NCBI RefSeq assembly: GCF_011045215.1 | Contig: NZ_CP049203.1 | Origin: Escherichia coli | GTDB lineage: Bacteria; Pseudomonadota; Gammaproteobacteria; Enterobacterales; Enterobacteriaceae | Direction: 5' to 3' (one strand) | Length of the DNA: 4,727 bases | Shown here: one piece after another, positions 59 to 4,203 of the stretch | How the letters are laid out: the number at the start of each line of letters is the position of its first letter | How positions within the stretch are numbered: position 1 is the first letter of the stretch | The notes under the pieces: generated by a model | What the model saw: the letters and a program-made list of their open reading frames with translations, nothing else | The model's database searches: none | Told to the model about the DNA's origin: nothing | Made by a program: the position numbers and the translations under genes

Positions 59-808
59 TTAACGCTTATCTCGCAACTGCGCAGCTGTATCTTTATTTCT
101 CTGATCACCTCTTTGATGTAAATTTCGATGGCTCTCTTGTGCAGCCGTCTCCCAGTCACCACGATTAACTGCAGCATTGAAATTAGGAAAATCTTTAGAT
201 AACTTAGGGATACCTAAATTAAACCCCATGTCAACCAACGCTGTTTTCCTTGAATTAGAAAAACCATCATAACCAGAATACAAAGAACGCAATCCCTTCT
301 CTGTCACTTGAACATCACTAATACATAAACCGATAACAGCATTATTTGATAAATGTAAGTTCATAGGAACTTGTCTAGAATCTTTTTTAAAATTATTAAA
401 CGCCTCTGTAATTTCCTCTTTAGATGCGGAAACCTCTTTTTCCATATCATCACCATGAGCATGCCATGTATGTGTTCTTGAAAATGGAAGGGATGCAGCC
501 ATATCAGGCGTAGATAGTAAATGACCGATTCCAACAGTAATATTTCCCTCACTGTCTTTGTACATTGTGTTTTTAAAACCTTCATGAGATTTCAAATTAT
601 TAACACACATAGTCATATAAAAACCATCATAACTCCTAGTGGAGGAAATATTTATGTGTGTCTTATCAGAAATGCCCTCATGACTATTCCCTCCAGAGTG
701 TCCACCATAGCTACTATGATTATCACCATCATAACTATGAATCGTGCCATAAGGGGTATCATGATCGTGCCATCCCGGACCTTGATTAGAACTTTCAATA
801 CCGCTCAT
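59..808 (-). CDS. T4-type lysozyme (GH24 muramidase) domain protein with Gly/Ser/His-rich N-terminal extension, 249 aa; candidate SOS-inducible cell-wall-degrading bacteriocin
   Basis: Long ORF in AT-rich DNA. Start set at ATG 808-806 (Met31 of the 279-aa track ORF) because AGAGGA lies 8 nt upstream and the earlier Met codons are upstream of the LexA box; stop TAA at 61-59. Residues ~85-249 align by eye with T4 lysozyme: SHEGFKNTMYKDSEGNITVGIGHLL vs T4L [25 protein letters not shown], with Glu, Asp and Thr at T4L-equivalent spacing (E11/D20/T26); C-terminal RKTALVDMGFNLG and DWETAAQ match T4L RRAAINMVFQMG and WDEAAV. Confidence 0.85.
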   Translation of the reverse strand: MSGIESSNQGPGWHDHDTPYGTIHSYDGDNHSSYGGHSGGNSHEGISDKTHINISSTRSYDGFYMTMCVNNLKSHEGFKNTMYKDSEGNITVGIGHLLSTPDMAASLPFSRTHTWHAHGDDMEKEVSASKEEITEAFNNFKKDSRQVPMNLHLSNNAVIGLCISDVQVTEKGLRSLYSGYDGFSNSRKTALVDMGFNLGIPKLSKDFPNFNAAVNRGDWETAAQESHRNLHQRGDQRNKDTAAQLRDKR

Positions 809-844
809 ATTAATTTCCTCTTTGACTAACAAATAACAACACCA

Positions 845-898
845 CACAAAACTGTGTTTATATACAGTATACTTACGCCTCTCCATATTCCCTGTCAA
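845..898 (-). promoter_or_regulatory. Promoter region of the lysozyme-like gene: consensus -35 TTGACA (893-898); -10 ambiguous
   Basis: Minus strand reads TTGACA-gggaatatggagaggcg-TAAGTA-TACTGTATATAAACACAG. TAAGTA (870-875) gives a 17-bp spacer but is a poor -10; TATACT (866-871) is a better hexamer but gives a 21-bp spacer. The -10 cannot be fixed from sequence alone. Confidence 0.5.
850..869 (-). promoter_or_regulatory. LexA (SOS) box
   Basis: Minus strand TACTGTATATAAACACAGTT: CTGT-N8-ACAG with AT-rich spacer, 17 of 20 matches to consensus TACTGTATATATATACAGTA, placed between the -35 and the start codon as in colicin promoters. Only one box is seen; many colicins have two. Confidence 0.65.
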
Positions 899-1115: not shown

Positions 1116-1340
1116 ATTTACCATAATCCCTTAATTGTACGCACCGCTGAAACGCTCTCAGACGCTTTCTGACGCAAAAACCGTAAAAAGAGATGTTTTC
1201 CCCCGGGTAAACCGAAAAAATGCGTCAGGAACGTTTTCAGCGCGTTGCATGACTATGCATGAAACTGAATGGCGATCGGTTTGGGCGCGTCCGGTGTCTC
1301 AAAGGCTTATTTTCGGATGTTTTCGTCCTCCGGCGTCGTT
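1116..1340 (-). other. cer: cer-like Xer site-specific recombination (multimer resolution) site: XerC/XerD core 1116-1145 plus ~190 bp accessory region
   Basis: Minus strand 1145-1116 reads GGTGCGTACAA-TTAAGGGA-TTATGGTAAAT, identical to the ColE1 cer XerC arm, 8-bp central region and XerD arm as I recall them. The accessory sequences would extend rightward on the + strand; the far boundary is approximate. Confidence 0.75.
1245..1262. promoter_or_regulatory. Candidate ArgR box within the cer accessory region
   Basis: ttGCATgactATGCAtga resembles the ARG box TnTGAATwwwwATTCAnw (two half-sites, 4-bp spacer) and lies about 100 bp from the XerC arm, where cer carries its ArgR site. The match is imperfect. 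Confidence 0.3.
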
Positions 1341-1367
1341 TTTCCGGCTCCTCCTGGTGGCCAGAAG

Positions 1368-1582
1368 CAGCACCGTAACGGTGCCTGCCTCACAGTGCTG
1401 GATCCAGCACCGCAGCACCGTAAGCAGCACCGTAAAGGGAAAATCCAGCCACAATCCAGCACCATAACAGGCACCGTTACAGTGCCTGTTGTTGATTAAC
1501 ACCATGATTAATAAGGATTAGCACTGTAGCAGTGCCGGTTACAGTGCTTGATCCAGCCACAATCCGGCACCGTTGCGGTGCT
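1368..1582. repeat. Dense cluster of short palindromes and direct repeats built on GCACCG / CAGTGC, flanking an AT-rich core (1487-1520)
   Basis: CAGCACCGTAA x3 (1368-1378, 1413-1423, 1425-1435). Palindromes: gcaccgt-a-acggtgc (1370-1384), perfect 16-bp gtgctggatccagcac (1395-1410), ggcac-N7-gtgcc (1470-1486), gcactg-tag-cagtgc (1521-1535), gcaccg-ttg-cggtgc (1567-1581). Direct repeat atccagccacaatcc[a/g]gcacc at 1443-1463 and 1551-1571. Confidence 0.6.
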
Positions 1583-1832
1583 GCGTATGGCGGAAAAACG
1601 TAAATTTTGCCACCTGAAATAATTCTAATGCACTGATTCCAAAGAGAAATCATGCAAAACGCAGTTTTGCGACAGGTGTGGTGACAGCAGGTCAGAGAAG
1701 GGGCGGATTCAGATATGAATCCGGGCCAGATCCGGGCATTAAGGGGTTCCCGGAAACATGAATAAGATTGCCAGTGCACGGGGATTTTTAATCCCCTGCC
1801 CCGTTGAGCCGCTCCACGGCGAAAAGGGGAAA

Positions 1833-1852
1833 GTAAAGTTAGCTAACTTTAC
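1833..1852. repeat. Perfect 20-bp palindrome gtaaagttagctaactttac; candidate operator or minus-strand terminator hairpin
   Basis: Self-complementary over all 20 bp. On the minus strand it is followed directly by TTTCCCCTTTTC and lies about 130 nt downstream of the stop of ORF 1981-2226. Confidence 0.5.
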
Positions 1853-1980
1853 ATGTCCTGCCCGGCGTTCACCGGTGTTTATGGCGGGGAACTGAACCAC
1901 CGGACGGGTGGAAACATGTGTATTCCTGTGTGCCCCTGTGTAATCCGGTGGATTTGTGTGTGCAAAATTCCGTAGCCGGT

Positions 1981-2226
1981 TCACCTGCGCCTCGCCGGCT
2001 GCCAGGTAAACGTGTTCTCTGCGGCACGATATGCTTTTGTTCGTTGAGCCTTTGCGCTTCTCGCTCTGCGTTCTGCCCGAATCATTCTCAAAACTTTTGC
2101 ACGCACTTTTCGCTTAACTTCCCGTGGCAGCTCTTCTTTGTCGGATAACTGCAACTGCGCAGCCTGTAAGGCATACGCATCACTGATACGCTTACGTTCT
2201 GCCACTGTCAGTTTCACCCAATACAT
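1981..2226 (-). CDS. Hypothetical small basic protein (81 aa), possibly ribbon-helix-helix-like DNA-binding or relaxosome-accessory remnant
   Basis: ORF with a G-rich Shine-Dalgarno-like sequence (GGGGGATAGGT) before the ATG. The protein is strongly basic and helix-prone (KRKVRAKVLRMIRAERRARSAKAQR). Its N-terminus WVKLTVAERKRISDAYA resembles the strand-helix start of RHH proteins. No firm homology; GC-rich DNA produces chance ORFs. Confidence 0.35.
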   Translation of the reverse strand: MYWVKLTVAERKRISDAYALQAAQLQLSDKEELPREVKRKVRAKVLRMIRAERRARSAKAQRTKAYRAAENTFTWQPARRR

Positions 2227-2322
2227 ACCTATCCCCCTGGCAACTTCCCGGAGTTATGCCTTTCGCTGTTTCCTGTTCGTTGTCGTTCGTCTGAGGTGTC
2301 GAGGCTGTGCCCTGACCAGGCA

Positions 2323-2498
2323 TTTTGTAGCACTGCCGCATCGGTGGCGGTGCTACAAAACATATCCTGTCCCGTCGATGGGGCAGGATATCACGTCCGT
2401 TAGTTTTCATCGTCCGGGGTGCAGGGGTGGCACTCCTGCCAGGCGTTTTGCTGAACGGCCATCACCGATGGCGGTTCAACAAAACATATCCTGTCCCG
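2323..2498. repeat. Two ~30-bp imperfect direct repeats (2345-2374 and 2469-2498) with associated inverted repeats
   Basis: tggcggt-NNN-acaaaacatatcctgtcccg occurs twice about 124 bp apart. An 11-bp inverted repeat ttttgtagcac / gtgctacaaaa (2323-2333 / 2350-2360) overlaps the first copy, and atatcctgtccc / ggggcaggatat (2362-2373 / 2380-2391) is a 12-bp inverted repeat with one mismatch. Confidence 0.55.
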
Positions 2499-2632
2499 CC
2501 TTTGCGTTCGCCGTTCGCGCATTGATGGCCAGCTTTGGCCAGTACACTGGCCATCACGCCGGGTCACTTTGTCAGATGTTAAAAAATCACGCGGTAAACG
2601 CCGTTATGCGCGGGTTTGCGCATGAAGCTCCC

Positions 2633-2667
2633 GTGCGTCACTTTGTCAAAAAGTCAAAGTGACGCAC
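2633..2667. repeat. Perfect 13-bp inverted repeat with 9-bp spacer (gtgcgtcactttg ... caaagtgacgcac)
   Basis: 2633-2645 is the exact reverse complement of 2655-2667. No flanking T-tract on either strand, so a protein-binding site is more likely than a terminator. Confidence 0.55.
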
Positions 2668-2816
2668 ATCAGGAACCGCCGGAACGTTCGTGTTGATGAC
2701 GGCAACATGCGCACAACGCAGACAGAAAATCGCGCACATATTCAGCAAAAAATAAGCGTCACGGGGTGTTAATTTCGTGCAGCCCACGCGTGGCAGGGCT
2801 TGTGTGATAATTTTCA

Positions 2817-2852
2817 GTGACGTCACCTGGTGTGATGACCAGGTGACGCACA
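2817..2852. repeat. Inverted repeat cgtcacctggt / accaggtgacg (11-bp arms, 6-bp spacer) carrying GTGACG(T/C)CAC motifs, about 40 bp upstream of rop
   Basis: 2821-2831 pairs with 2838-2848. The 10-bp palindrome gtgacgtcac sits at 2817-2826 and GTGACGCAC at 2844-2852; the same 9-mer occurs at 2659-2667 and inverted at 2633-2641. Confidence 0.55.
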
Positions 2853-2891
2853 GGCGGACGTAATAAACACCAGTAACGGAGACGGGAGAAC

Positions 2892-3086
2892 GTGAACAAA
2901 CAGCAACAGACCGCGCTCAACATGGCGCGATTCATCAAAAGCCAGAGCCTGACATTACTCGGGAAACTTGACGCTCTGGACGCCGACGAACAGGCCACCC
3001 TGTGCGAACGGCTACACGAACTGGCGGAAGAACTCTGTGACAGCGTACAGACGCACTTTGAGGCGCAGTACAGCACGGAACCATAA
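2892..3086 (+). CDS. rop: Rop/Rom, RNA I-RNA II pairing modulator of ColE1-type replicons (64 aa, GTG start)
   Basis: MNKQQQTALNMARFIKSQSLTLLGKLDALDADEQATLCERLHELAEELC aligns along its length with pMB1/pBR322 Rop (MTKQEKTALNMARFIRSQTLTLLEKLNELDADEQADICESLHDHADELY, from memory). It is oriented toward the origin as in pBR322. Stop TAA at 3084-3086; GGAGA/GGGAGA precedes the GTG. Confidence 0.9.
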   Translation: MNKQQQTALNMARFIKSQSLTLLGKLDALDADEQATLCERLHELAEELCDSVQTHFEAQYSTEP

Positions 3087-3796
3087 CAGGGGCTGGCGAA
3101 AGCGGTCGCGGCTCGTCCGTGAGCGTTTTCGCCAGCAGACAAGCCCGGAGAGCGCGTCAGGACATGGGCTGAGAGAAACACCGGCGCGTAAGTGCTCAAA
3201 TCAGACTGGCGGAGACATTCCGCTTCCTCGCCCACTCGCTCACTACGTTCGGTCGCTGGGGCTGCGGCGAGCGGTGACGGCTCTCTCATAACGGCGGACA
3301 GTTTATCCACAGAATCGGGGGATAAGCCGGACAGAACATGTGAGCAAAAAGCACGAACAAAAAGGCCGCGGCGGGGCCGTTTTTCCATAGGCTCCGCCTC
3401 CCCCTGGCGAGCTTCACACTTTTCGAAGCTGCAAGCCTAGGATTTGACGAAACCCGATGTGGCTTCAAGATCATCACCGTTTCCGGTGAATCGCTCCCCC
3501 CTGCGACCTCCACATTCCCGCCATATCGTTTGCCGGATACCTTACCGCCTTTCCCCTTGCGGGACCGTGGCGCTTTCTCATAGCTCACGTGCATCTCTGC
3601 GGTATCTCGGGCGACTTAGGCAGTTCGCTCCAGGTCTGGCTGTATGCAGGACCCCCCCTTTCAGCCTGACTGCTGCGCCTGTTCCGGTAACTGTTCTCTT
3701 GAGGCCAACCCGGAAAGACACGCCTTAACGCCACTGGCAGCAGCCACTGGTAACTGGATTTGCAGAGCGAGATGTATACAGATGGTTACAGAGTTC

Positions 3797-3825
3797 TTGA
3801 GTAACAGCCCTCTTATGGCTACACT
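3797..3825 (+). promoter_or_regulatory. RNA I promoter (-35 TTGAGT, 17-bp spacer, -10 TACACT)
   Basis: Positionally equivalent to the pBR322 RNA I promoter (TTGAAG-N17-TACACT), with the transcript start about 7 nt downstream. Confidence 0.6.
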
Positions 3826-3831
3826 AGAGGG

Positions 3832-3940
3832 ACAGTTTTTAGGTAATCTGCGCTCTGCGATAGCCAGTTACCATTGGAACAATGAGAAGGTGAGATGTCT
3901 CATCGCTCCCGGAAAAAACCGCCTTACGGCGGTTTTTTCC
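3832..3940 (+). ncRNA. RNA I (antisense replication inhibitor)
   Basis: Begins ACAGTTTTTAGGTAATCTGCGCTCTGC (pMB1 RNA I begins ACAGTATTTGGTATCTGCGCTCTGC) and ends in the hairpin plus U-tract aaaaaaccgcc-ttac-ggcggtttttt (3913-3936). About 108 nt, antisense to the 5' end of RNA II. Confidence 0.8.
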
Positions 3941-3953
3941 GTTTACAAGCCGA

Positions 3954-3982
3954 AGATTACGCGCAGCGGCAAAGGATCTCAA
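3954..3982 (-). promoter_or_regulatory. RNA II promoter (-35 TTGAGA, 17-bp spacer, -10 TAATCT)
   Basis: Minus strand reads TTGAGA-tcctttgccgctgcgcg-TAATCT-tcggctt-G. The hexamers are identical to the pBR322 RNA II promoter. Confidence 0.7.
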
Positions 3983-4203
3983 GAGGATCTTTTGCGATCC
4001 GCCTGAAACTCATCACCGTAATTCCGTCTGTGGAATAAACGCAACCTTTTGCACATTATCGGTTAAATCATAACGAATTTGCATATACAACTGCGGTTCA
4101 AAGCCAGTAAACTGGGGGGCGAAGCCCAACCGTTACCAGCTTTGGTGACGTAATTTCCTGAAGTTCCAGCGTAGAACACCAGTTACCAAAAAACGAACAC
4201 AAC

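What the first reader, a model, noticed from the sequence alone, without database searches (positions are those of the whole stretch)
1340..2890. No intact mobilisation or lysis genes: a 1.5-kb spacer of short overlapping ORFs between cer and rop
ColE1 carries its mob operon in this general region. Here there is only a chain of short, overlapping, compositionally odd minus-strand ORFs (2410-2192, 2226-1981, 1984-1739, 1779-1477) and many palindromes, with no relaxase-like sequence. No small lipoprotein-type lysis (BRP) gene was seen near the bacteriocin module either. That fits the lysis-gene-free organisation of colicin M and pesticin, and suggests a non-self-mobilisable plasmid carrying decayed or repurposed mob-region DNA.
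Basis: partly seen in the sequence, partly recalled or inferred. Interest (0 to 1): 0.35.

Follow-up and report, generated by a model that had tools for sequence, protein, structure and literature searches.

The report
Four transfer origins, no relaxase
The supposed 1.5-kb "spacer" of a small bacteriocin plasmid is a compact set of four hitch-hiking sites (origins of transfer) copied from three families of conjugative plasmids, plus one real small gene; the plasmid cannot move itself but probably gets carried by several helpers, which is a known strategy.

Summary
The negative observations hold. No relaxase, mob accessory or lysis gene is present in any frame. Palindromes are about 9-fold enriched.

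The "chain of ORFs" is at chance level. Three of the four ORFs are broken in close relatives. Only 2226-1981(-) is a real gene (dN/dS 0.14).

The DNA is not decayed mob sequence. It holds four cis-acting origins of transfer, each homologous to the oriT spot of a conjugative plasmid:
- F-type: 1352-1690, nic 1679|1680.
- IncP-type: 1795-1962, nic 1860|1861.
- I-complex type, two tandem copies: nics 2369|2370 and 2493|2494.

All four nics lie on the + strand. The ColE1-type bom is deleted.

The plasmid is therefore a relaxase-less "pOriT" plasmid, very likely mobilisable in trans by F-like, IncP-like and I-complex helpers. The closest precedent is pEC156, which carries oriT-F plus oriT-R64 and was shown experimentally to be mobilised by both (PMC4743918).

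Verdict: a new member of a known kind. It is unusual only in packing three oriT families and four nic sites into about 1.2 kb. Interest is modest.

The parts
1352..1690 (+). F-type origin of transfer. It has the repeat-rich accessory-protein side (GCACCGT / CAGTGC motifs, 1352-1600), the nic-proximal inverted repeat and the nic.
   Evidence: 96% identical over 1415-1680 to the traM|SLT(orf169) intergenic region of the conjugative IncFIA/FII plasmid pRHB15-C07_3. 84% identical to pSE11-2. Alignable with the F plasmid oriT.
1654..1670 (+). Nic-proximal inverted repeat of the F-type oriT: GCAAAAC-GCA-GTTTTGC.
   Evidence: Aligns with F GCAAAAAC-TTG-TTTTTGC immediately 5' of nic. Coordinates.
1671..1688 (+). 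F-type nic core GACAGGTGT|GGTGACAGC. The predicted nick is between 1679 and 1680.
   Evidence: The F nic is TTTGCGTGGGGTGT|GGTGCTTT (PMC2504302). The 9 nt 5' of the nic are identical to conjugative pRHB06-C19_2. Homology to every helper ends exactly at this point.
1795..1962 (+). IncP-type origin of transfer.
   Evidence: 95% identical over 1838-1881 to the traJ|traK intergenic region of the MOBP/MPF_T plasmid pSTEC2018_607-e. Aligns block by block with the IncP-1alpha oriT of pBS228. The nic core is shared by 52 conjugative and 33 small 'non-mobilizable' plasmids.
1833..1852 (.). IncP-type inverted repeat GTAAAGTTAG/CTAACTTTAC, a perfect 20-bp palindrome. It is a shortened form of the helper's repeat with 19-bp arms.
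   Evidence: About 20 nt of inner stem and loop are deleted relative to the helper. The nic-proximal arm is retained.
1853..1865 (+). IncP-type nic core ATGTCCTG|CCCGG. The predicted nick is between 1860 and 1861, 8 nt after the repeat.
   Evidence: Identical in the helper pSTEC2018_607-e. IncP-1alpha has CTATCCTG|CCCGG. The nick position in RP4 is from established knowledge (Pansegrau/Waters/Lanka), not tested here.
1963..2245 (-). Gene cassette that replaces the ProQ/FinO-family gene of the closest relatives.
   Evidence: Flanks are 92-94% identical to pRHB39-C22_5 while the interior is unrelated. The relatives' gene is ProQ/FinO, PF04352 E=4e-19.
1981..2226 (-). Real gene for an 81-aa, very basic protein of unknown function. 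The model is a helical hairpin.
   Evidence: Nine homologues at 57-96% identity with a conserved C-terminus. dN/dS is 0.14 and 0.07. There is an AGGGGGA Shine-Dalgarno sequence 6 nt upstream. AlphaFold pLDDT is 81, with helices at 8-27 and 35-72. No Pfam, NCBIfam, PDB-fold or NikA-profile match.
2244..2257 (-). 5' remnant of the displaced ProQ/FinO gene: ATG changed to ATA, followed by about 4 codons.
   Evidence: Alignment A1, columns about 1050-1070, read against the FinO translation.
2289..2376 (+). I-complex-type origin of transfer, copy a. Short repeat 2298-2305/2309-2316; long repeat 2323-2337/2346-2360; nic core ATATCCTG|TCCCG with the nick at 2369|2370.
   Evidence: Aligns with the nikA(mobA)|leading-region intergenic oriT of IncK2/Z, IncI-gamma/K1, Klebsiella MOBP/MPF_I plasmids and R64. 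Both repeats are kept by compensatory changes.
2377..2391 (-). Inverted partial copy of the I-type nic core (ATATCCTGCCCC). With 2362-2376 it forms a 15-bp palindrome.
   Evidence: (I14). Also present in pRHB39-C22_5. Its role is unknown.
2412..2504 (+). I-complex-type origin of transfer, copy b. Short repeat 2421-2428/2432-2439; long repeat 2446-2463/2467-2484; nick at 2493|2494.
   Evidence: 85% identical to the IncK2/Z oriT. Its nic-proximal arm GATGGCGGTTCAACAAAA is identical to IncK2/Z and IncI-gamma/K1. It is a direct repeat of copy a with 124-bp spacing (D3).
2533..2890 (.). Conserved rop-upstream segment with GTCACTTTGTCA boxes (2563-2574, 2637-2648) and two hairpins (2633-2645/2655-2667 and 2821-2831/2838-2848). 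It is probably promoter or regulatory DNA, not an oriT.
   Evidence: Present upstream of rop in about 40 small plasmids. The 2539-2678 part also lies directly upstream of the FinO gene in ColK-like pSCU-171-3 and of the 81-aa homologue in L020. No consensus sigma-70 promoter was found.
3142..3143 (.). Point at which the ColE1-type bom/oriT is missing: about 113 bp, including nic CTGG|CTTA.
   Evidence: Alignment with ColE1. There is no CTGGCTTA in the window, and one-mismatch matches are at chance level.

Best explanation
Window 1340-2890 is the mobilisation region of a relaxase-less ColE1-type plasmid. It works in cis only.

Contents:
- Four origins of transfer in a row. All are nicked on the + strand, which is the rop-sense strand and the polarity of the lost ColE1 bom.
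  - F-type, nic 1679|1680.
  - IncP-type, nic 1860|1861.
  - Two tandem I-complex-type copies, nics 2369|2370 and 2493|2494.
- One real small gene (2226-1981, minus strand), which sits where relatives carry a ProQ/FinO gene.
- A conserved regulatory segment upstream of rop.

Inferred mechanism:
1. In a cell that also carries a matching conjugative plasmid, the helper's relaxase and accessory proteins assemble on the cognate site. These would be TraI/TraY/TraM/IHF for the F type, TraI/TraJ for the P type and NikB/NikA for the I type.
2. The relaxase cuts the + strand at the nic.
3. The strand is piloted 5'->3' through the helper's type IV secretion system, with rop and ori entering first.
4. 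The relaxase reseals it at the regenerated nic in the recipient.

Shown here: the homology, architecture and strand polarity of the four sites, and the absence of any relaxase, lysis gene or ColE1 bom.

Inferred, not shown: that the sites are actually nicked and support transfer.
For: Each site matches the oriT position of a conjugative plasmid.
- F-type: between traM and the SLT gene (orf169) in MOBF/MPF_F plasmids, 96% over 266 bp.
- P-type: between traJ and traK in a MOBP/MPF_T plasmid, and alignable with the IncP-1alpha oriT.
- I-type: between nikA/mobA plus relaxase and the ArdA/Hok leading region in IncK2/Z, IncI-gamma/K1, Klebsiella MPF_I plasmids and R64.

The nic cores are conserved.
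- F-type: GGTGT|GGTG, against the experimentally defined F nic.
- I-type: ACAAAACATATCCTGTCCCG is invariant across the six non-R64 rows of the alignment, which include both window copies; R64 differs within this stretch.
- P-type: ATGTCCTG|CCCGG is identical to its helper.

The repeat-to-nic architecture is kept. The I-type repeats are maintained by compensatory changes: 6 pairs changed on both sides and 88.7% of cells paired, reached by 0-1 of 500 shuffles, against 33-56% paired in slid controls.

Homology to F-like helpers stops exactly at the predicted nic.

The module is conserved in several small plasmids that carry different cargo.

No relaxase, mob or lysis gene is present, and the ColE1 bom is deleted.

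There is experimental precedent. pEC156, a mob-less ColE1-type plasmid with oriT-F and oriT-R64 near cer and rom, is mobilised by F and by R64, and loses this ability when both loci are deleted (PMC4743918). The general pOriT concept is described in PMC10123127.
Against:
- The P-type repeat is shortened by about 20 nt relative to its helper.
- The window lacks 33 bp of the F-type accessory-site repeats that both helpers and relatives have.
- The long repeat of I-type copy a was not found in the conjugative plasmids I examined; it occurs mostly in small plasmids (102 of 113 records), so its helper is unidentified.
- pKPN2, which has similar loci, was reported to be mobilised by F but not by R64. 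Sequence similarity therefore does not guarantee function.
- The window's own host and its co-resident plasmids are unknown.
Confidence: 0.8

Rival explanations
1. The oriT-like sequences are non-functional scars. They would have been left by past recombination or cointegration with conjugative plasmids and then carried along passively. On this reading the plasmid is truly non-mobilisable.
For: - The P-type repeat is truncated.
- There is a 33-bp deletion in the F-type accessory region.
- Orphan pieces of the P-type oriT that begin at the nic lie in non-coding DNA of IncF and IncX1 plasmids, so such fragments do get scattered.
- MOB-suite types the relatives as 'non-mobilizable'.
Against: - All four nic cores and their nic-proximal repeat arms are intact and in the correct register.
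- All four share one polarity, that of the lost ColE1 bom.
- The array is conserved across small plasmids with unrelated cargo.
- The short P-type repeat plus nic is 100% identical in many 2.6-12-kb plasmids of several genera.
- A comparable two-oriT plasmid is experimentally mobilisable.
- MOB-suite typing relies largely on relaxase genes.
Confidence: 0.12
2. One reading: the region is a decayed, pseudogenised ColE1-type mob operon.
For: - In ColE1 the mbe operon lies between cer and rop.
- A ColK-like relative carries mbe genes near a ProQ/FinO gene and the 2552-2667-like segment.
Against: - There is no translated similarity to MbeA/B/C/D or to other relaxases in any frame.
- 1352-1962 and 2289-2504 are accounted for by homology to non-coding oriT regions of conjugative plasmids, and 1963-2245 by a gene cassette.
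- The ColE1 bom is also absent.
Confidence: 0.03
3. The palindromes mainly serve other functions, and the resemblance to oriTs is secondary. Candidates are single-strand initiation or primosome sites, terminators, or RNA or DNA targets of the ProQ/FinO-like or 81-aa protein.
For: - The segment 2533-2890 and some hairpins (1706-1723, 1781-1797) are not explained by oriT homology.
- The 2539-2678 element travels with the FinO or 81-aa gene.
- There is a weak Rfam traJ-II hit at 1791-1855.
Against: - The traJ-II hit is below threshold (29.5 against 40 bits) and coincides with the P-type repeat.
- For 1352-1962 and 2289-2504 the homology is to oriTs specifically, down to the nic cores.
- Terminator-like and promoter-like matches are at chance level.
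Confidence: 0.05

Closest known systems
pEC156 and relatives (pColG, pKPN2, pSe-Kan): mob-less ColE1-type plasmids with oriT-F plus oriT-R64 (PMC4743918; PMC9282650)
   Same: - ColE1-type replicon with cer and rom/rop.
- No mob genes.
- F-type and R64/I-type oriT loci in the cer-rop interval.
- pEC156 and pSe-Kan were shown experimentally to be mobilised in trans.
   Different: - This plasmid adds a third family, IncP-type.
- It has the I-type site as two tandem copies that differ in sequence.
- Its F-type site is of a divergent livestock F-like lineage (84-96% to the pSE11-2/pRHB plasmids). I did not measure its identity to F itself; pEC156's site is 86.5% identical to F.
- Its cargo is a lysozyme-domain bacteriocin rather than a restriction-modification system or resistance gene.
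- I could not fetch pEC156 itself for direct alignment.
pOriT plasmids (Ares-Arroyo, Coluzzi & Rocha 2023, PMC10123127)
   Same: A relaxase-less plasmid carrying oriTs of conjugative ('pCONJ-like') type, dependent on helpers. The paper notes that a few plasmids have up to 5 oriTs.
   Different: That survey found about 88% of oriT-bearing E. coli plasmids have one oriT, and that multi-oriT plasmids tend to encode several relaxases. This one has four oriTs and no relaxase in 4.7 kb.
pCERC7 / NTP16 / pU302S group and pBuzz (Moran & Hall, cited in PMC9282650)
   Same: Small plasmids with I-complex-type oriT(s) next to a multimer resolution site, mobilised by I-complex helpers. pBuzz has two I-type oriTs.
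   Different: - The pCERC7 group encodes its own NikA accessory protein. Here no NikA-like protein is present.
- The pBuzz oriTs are inversely oriented. Here they are tandem, with one extra inverted nic-core fragment.
ColE1 mob/bom system (MbeA-D plus bom)
   Same: Same backbone position between cer and rop. The strand polarity of the nick relative to rop and ori is also the same.
   Different: No mbe genes and no ColE1 nic. The bom is deleted.

Membership tests
F-type (MOBF12) oriT | Nic core recognised by TraI: G-rich ...GTGT|GGTG, with the bases at -1, -2 and -4 (T, G, G) that form the intrastrand triple. | tested here: met
   The window has GACAGGTGT|GGTGAC at 1671-1685 and F has GTGGGGTGT|GGTGCT, so T-1, G-2 and G-4 are kept.
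F-type (MOBF12) oriT | Inverted repeat immediately 5' of the nic, and an accessory-protein (TraY/IHF/TraM) side extending toward traM. | tested here: met
   The repeat is at 1654-1670. The stretch 1415-1680 is 84-96% identical to the traM-proximal oriT of F-like helpers. A 33-bp stretch is missing in the window.
F-type (MOBF12) oriT | Nicking and transfer by a cognate F-like relaxosome. | not testable with these tools
   Needs mating and nicking assays.
IncP-type (MOBP, RP4-like) oriT | Nick-region consensus ..TCCTG|C, located 8 nt 3' of an inverted repeat whose nic-proximal arm binds TraJ. | tested here: met
   The repeat is at 1833-1852, followed by ATGTCCTG|CCCGG, which puts the nick 8 nt after the repeat. 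The nic-proximal arm is retained. The repeat as a whole is shortened.
IncP-type (MOBP, RP4-like) oriT | Homology to the traJ|traK intergenic region of an IncP-like conjugative plasmid. | tested here: met
   95% over 44 bp to pSTEC2018_607-e. Block-wise alignment with IncP-1alpha pBS228.
I-complex / R64-type (MOBP, MPF_I) oriT | Core of 'repeat A' (NikA site) plus the nick region ..ATCCTG|TCCCG at fixed spacing, with a short GC-rich repeat upstream. | tested here: met
   Both copies have all three elements in register with R64, IncK2/Z, I-gamma/K1 and Klebsiella MPF_I oriTs. The repeats covary. Spacing differs from R64 by 1 nt but equals that of the K/Z/I-gamma type.
I-complex / R64-type (MOBP, MPF_I) oriT | Cognate NikA/NikB available. 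In the pCERC7 group, nikA is plasmid-borne. | tested here: not met
   No NikA-like or relaxase sequence is in the window. It would have to be supplied wholly in trans.
ColE1 (MOBP5/HEN) mobilisable plasmid | An mbeA-type relaxase gene and a bom with nic CTGG|CTTA. | tested here: not met
   tblastn was negative. The bom is deleted and the nic motif is absent.
Colicin lysis (BRP) gene | An ORF of about 45-50 aa with a lipoprotein signal and a lipobox Cys. | tested here: not met
   tblastn with the ColE1 and ColK lysis proteins was negative, and the lipobox scan gave no credible ORF.
pOriT (relaxase-less, oriT-bearing plasmid) | At least one homologue of a verified oriT and no relaxase gene. | tested here: met
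   Four oriT homologues. No relaxase in the 4727-bp window.

The most novel reading that the evidence does not exclude
The array may not be a passive collection. It could be a modular 'universal hitch-hiking cassette' assembled by relaxase-mediated joining at nic sites. Two observations point that way: homology to helpers breaks exactly at the F nic, and orphan P-type fragments elsewhere start at their nic.

On this reading the interchangeable small basic gene at its centre (the 81-aa protein here, ProQ/FinO in relatives) would be a dedicated nucleic-acid-binding factor. It might assist relaxosome formation or single-strand handling, or manipulate the helper's fertility control, for several unrelated conjugation systems at once.
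Probability: 0.12. Interest if true: 0.6.

Novelty: new member of a known kind. Interest (0 to 1): 0.35.

Why it matters
Small plasmids like this one are routinely scored 'non-mobilizable' because they have no relaxase. MOB-suite does so for its closest relatives.

Carrying oriTs for F-like, IncP-like and I-complex helpers would give a 4.7-kb bacteriocin plasmid access to most of the conjugative plasmids common in Enterobacteriaceae. That bears on how bacteriocin, resistance and restriction-modification cargo spreads, and on how plasmid mobility is predicted from sequence.

The idea itself is established (pEC156, the pOriT concept). The value here is a clear, coordinate-level example with three oriT families, and a correction of the 'junk spacer' reading.

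Tried and rejected
- Decayed mob operon. tblastn with 23 mob, relaxosome, lysis, exclusion and FinO proteins, plus six-frame Pfam, found nothing.
- The 81-aa protein as a NikA/RHH accessory protein. Its position next to the I-type oriT suggested this. hhalign against a NikA/MobA/TraJ/MbeC profile gave probability 0.2% (hhalign Probab=0.24). Pfam and NCBIfam gave no hit. Foldseek against the PDB gave no hit with E below 5. The AlphaFold model is a generic helical hairpin. Function remains unknown.
- The Rfam traJ-II hit at 1791-1855 (29.5 bits against a gathering score of 40). I treat it as a chance match to the P-type hairpin.
- A residual ColE1 bom between rop and ori. It is absent.
- 2533-2890 as a fifth oriT. 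No conjugative-plasmid oriT homology was found. Matches in large plasmids come with rop, so they look like co-integrated small plasmids, or lie in unrelated non-coding DNA. It is better read as regulatory DNA that travels with rop and with the FinO or 81-aa gene. No consensus promoter was found, however.
- Finding the window's own record and its co-resident helpers. It is not in PLSDB or in E. coli RefSeq complete genomes.
- Fetching pEC156, AP005147, AP001918 and BN000925 by accession failed. R64 (NC_005014), F (NC_002483) and IncP-1alpha pBS228 were used instead.
Full report
**Context**

The window is a small ColE1-type plasmid. The landmarks are:
- RNAI at 3835-3942 (+).
- rop at 2892-3086 (+), PF01815 E=3.5e-31.
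- The cer XerC/XerD core at 1116-1145.
- An AT-rich cargo: a lysozyme-domain bacteriocin ORF at 59-898(-) and a putative immunity ORF at 4204-4683(-).

The finding concerns the 1.5 kb between cer and rop.

**Checking the observation**

The four minus-strand ORFs are present, but they are what chance gives. The region has six ORFs of at least 70 aa, against 5.7 +/- 1.9 in dinucleotide shuffles. Three of them (2410-2192, 1984-1739, 1779-1477) carry frameshifts and stops in the closest relatives despite 83-96% DNA identity, and they hit no protein family.

Palindromes, in contrast, are real. There are 15 inverted-repeat centres against 1.7 +/- 1.2 expected, and 0 of 200 shuffles reach 15.

The absence of mobilisation and lysis genes is confirmed:
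- tblastn with ColE1 MbeA/B/C/D, lysis, Exc1/2, ColK lysis, I-complex NikA-like and relaxase proteins, IncP-like TraJ/I/K, F-like TraM/TraY and FinO gave nothing significant.
- Six-frame Pfam of 1300-2951 found only the start of Rop.
- A lipobox scan of the circularised window found no plausible BRP.

The region is not compositionally odd. It has the GC content of the backbone, and the cargo is the outlier.

**What the DNA is**

The closest relatives are pRHB39-C22_5 (E. coli) and pEA5_2 (E. albertii). They share the flanks at about 92-95% identity but carry a ProQ/FinO-family gene where the window has ORF 2226-1981. Searching sub-segments against the plasmid collection showed that the non-coding parts match conjugative plasmids at precisely their origins of transfer.

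*(i) F-type oriT.* Window 1415-1680 is 96% identical to the DNA between traM and the SLT (orf169) gene of the IncFIA/FII plasmid pRHB15-C07_3, and 84% identical to pSE11-2.
- Aligned with F itself, the window has the nic-proximal repeat GCAAAAC-GCA-GTTTTGC (1654-1670), followed by GACAGGTGT|GGTGAC. F has GTGGGGTGT|GGTGCT.
- The F nic is experimentally defined as TTTGCGTGGGGTGT|GGTGCTTT (PMC2504302).
- The nine bases 5' of the predicted nick are identical to another F-like helper, pRHB06-C19_2.
- Homology to all helpers stops exactly at the nick. This independently supports the position 1679|1680.

*(ii) IncP-type oriT.* Window 1838-1881 is 95% identical to the traJ|traK intergenic region of a 40.8-kb MOBP/MPF_T plasmid.
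- It aligns block by block with the IncP-1alpha oriT of pBS228. The shared blocks are TCCCGTTGAG, GCGAA.A.GGGA, the inverted repeat, and ..TCCTG|CCCGG.
- In the window the repeat is a perfect 20-bp palindrome (1833-1852). The nick core ATGTCCTG|CCCGG places the nick 8 nt after the repeat, at 1860|1861.
- The repeat is a shortened version of the helper's repeat, which has 19-bp arms. The nic-proximal arm is retained.
- This core occurs in 52 conjugative and 33 small 'non-mobilizable' plasmids.

*(iii) Two I-complex-type oriTs.* Window 2289-2376 and 2412-2504 are two tandem oriTs, 124 bp apart.
- They align with the intergenic DNA between nikA/mobA plus relaxase and the ArdA/Hok leading region of IncK2/Z, IncI-gamma/K1 and Klebsiella MPF_I plasmids, and with R64.
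- The stretch ACAAAACATATCCTGTCCCG is invariant across the six non-R64 rows of the alignment, which include both window copies; R64 differs within it.
- The short and long inverted repeats differ between copies but are kept by compensatory changes: 6 pairs changed on both sides and 88.7% of cells paired, reached by 0-1 of 500 shuffles, against 33-56% paired in slid controls.
- Copy b has the same nic-proximal arm as the IncK2/Z and I-gamma/K1 plasmids.
- The arm of copy a was found mostly in other small plasmids, so its helper is unidentified.

All four nick cores are on the + strand. This is the polarity of the ColE1 bom, which is itself precisely missing between rop and ori: an approximately 113-bp gap that includes CTGG|CTTA.

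**The gene in the middle**

ORF 2226-1981(-) is a real gene.
- It has a good Shine-Dalgarno sequence.
- It has nine homologues at 57-96% identity with a conserved C-terminus.
- dN/dS is 0.14 and 0.07.
- Homologues sit next to rop in 3.9-kb plasmids, and next to the 3' end of a NikA-like plus 1423-aa (unannotated, presumably relaxase) operon on a 40-kb contig.
- It is very basic and is predicted to be a helical hairpin.
- It shows no family, fold or NikA-profile similarity.
- A five-codon remnant of the FinO gene, with ATG changed to ATA, remains at 2244-2257. The cassette 1963-2245 therefore displaced a FinO gene.

The segment 2533-2890 is conserved upstream of rop in about 40 small plasmids. 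Part of it also lies upstream of the FinO or 81-aa gene elsewhere. I read it as regulatory DNA, but no consensus promoter was detected.

**Mechanism**

The best-supported reading is a relaxase-less plasmid that is mobilised in trans. A co-resident helper's relaxosome assembles on the cognate site and nicks the + strand. The strand is transferred 5'->3', with rop and ori leading, and is religated in the recipient.

Homology, architecture and polarity are shown here. Nicking and transfer are inferred.

The inference rests on direct experimental precedent. pEC156 is a mob-less ColE1-type plasmid with oriT-F and oriT-R64 near cer and rom. It is mobilised by F and by R64, and it loses this ability when both loci are removed (PMC4743918). 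pSe-Kan is mobilised by F through its F-type oriT (PMC9282650). The general category is the pOriT plasmid (PMC10123127).

There are caveats:
- The P-type repeat is shortened.
- The window lacks 33 bp of the F-type accessory repeats.
- pKPN2 shows that an R64-like site need not work with R64.
- The native host and its helpers are unknown.

**Comparison and novelty**

This is the same kind of object as pEC156, pColG, pKPN2 and pSe-Kan, and related to pCERC7 and pBuzz. It differs in four ways:
- It has a third oriT family, IncP-type.
- Its I-type site is a tandem pair of distinct copies.
- It has no plasmid-borne NikA.
- It has a swappable small gene in the middle.

Surveys report that about 88% of oriT-bearing E. 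coli plasmids have one oriT, and that a few have up to five, usually together with several relaxases. Four oriTs with no relaxase in 4.7 kb is therefore at the dense end, but not a new category.

**Verdict**

The 'decayed spacer' interpretation is wrong. The finding is explained by a known strategy. Interest is modest (0.35).

Noticed in passing
window 3142-3143 (between rop and ori): Relative to ColE1, about 113 bp containing the ColE1 bom/oriT and its nic CTGG|CTTA are precisely absent. The same gap is present in pRHB39-C22_5. The four acquired oriTs have the same strand polarity as the lost bom.
   Followed up: yes
window 1671-1680; L028, L029, L006: Homology between the small plasmid and the F-like helpers ends exactly at the predicted F-type nick. 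The 9 nt before the nick match one helper (pRHB06-C19_2), while the rest matches another (pRHB15-C07_3) at 96-98%. This looks like recombination at or near the nic.
   Followed up: partly
L007 3216-3323, L009 3001-3076, L011 3001-3108 (IncFIA, IncX1 and IncF plasmids): Orphan copies of the P-type oriT that begin 4-7 nt 5' of its nick (window 1854/1857 onward) lie in non-coding DNA of unrelated large plasmids, away from any relaxase gene.
   Followed up: no
window 2362-2391: A 15-bp palindrome is formed by the I-type nic core and an inverted partial copy of it (ATATCCTGCCCC on the minus strand). It is conserved in pRHB39-C22_5. Small plasmids L020-L022 carry two inversely oriented CATCCTGTCCCG cores, which recalls pBuzz.
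   Followed up: partly
window 2244-2257 (-); L001 3306-3680, L002 1452-1802, L014 4098-4451: Relatives, and a ColK-like mob+ plasmid, encode a 116-124-aa ProQ/FinO-domain protein at this position. The window keeps only a 5-codon remnant with ATG changed to ATA. Why small ColE1-type plasmids carry a FinO-domain protein next to their oriTs is unexplained.
   Followed up: partly
window 2533-2890: A conserved segment with GTCACTTTGTCA boxes and two strong hairpins (2633-2667, 2821-2848). It accompanies rop in about 40 plasmids and, in part, the FinO or 81-aa gene in others. No consensus promoter or Rfam family was found.
   Followed up: partly
window 59-898 (-) and 4204-4683 (-): The bacteriocin-like ORF has a phage-lysozyme domain (PF00959, E=1.6e-9), which makes it pesticin-like. 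The adjacent 159-aa ORF has no family. Both lie in 33-38% GC DNA with no match in PLSDB or E. coli RefSeq genomes.
   Followed up: no
window 3835-3942 (+): RNAI scores 44.7 bits, just under Rfam's gathering score of 47. The replicon is only 76% identical to ColE1 over 3218-3993.
   Followed up: no
window after 1421, against L001, L002 and L028: The window lacks a 33-bp stretch (GTAAGCAGCACTCCCCCCATAAAATCAGGCACT) of the F-type accessory-site repeats. The stretch is present in relatives and in the helper pRHB15-C07_3. It looks like a deletion between GCAGCACC repeats.
   Followed up: partly
L002 (pEA5_2) about 1290-1330, against window 1833-1852: pEA5_2 has a full-length P-type inverted repeat whose nic-proximal arm resembles that of RP4 (GGTGGGCC..CTT.AC). 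It also has a single I-type oriT that looks like a recombinant of the window's copies a and b.
   Followed up: partly
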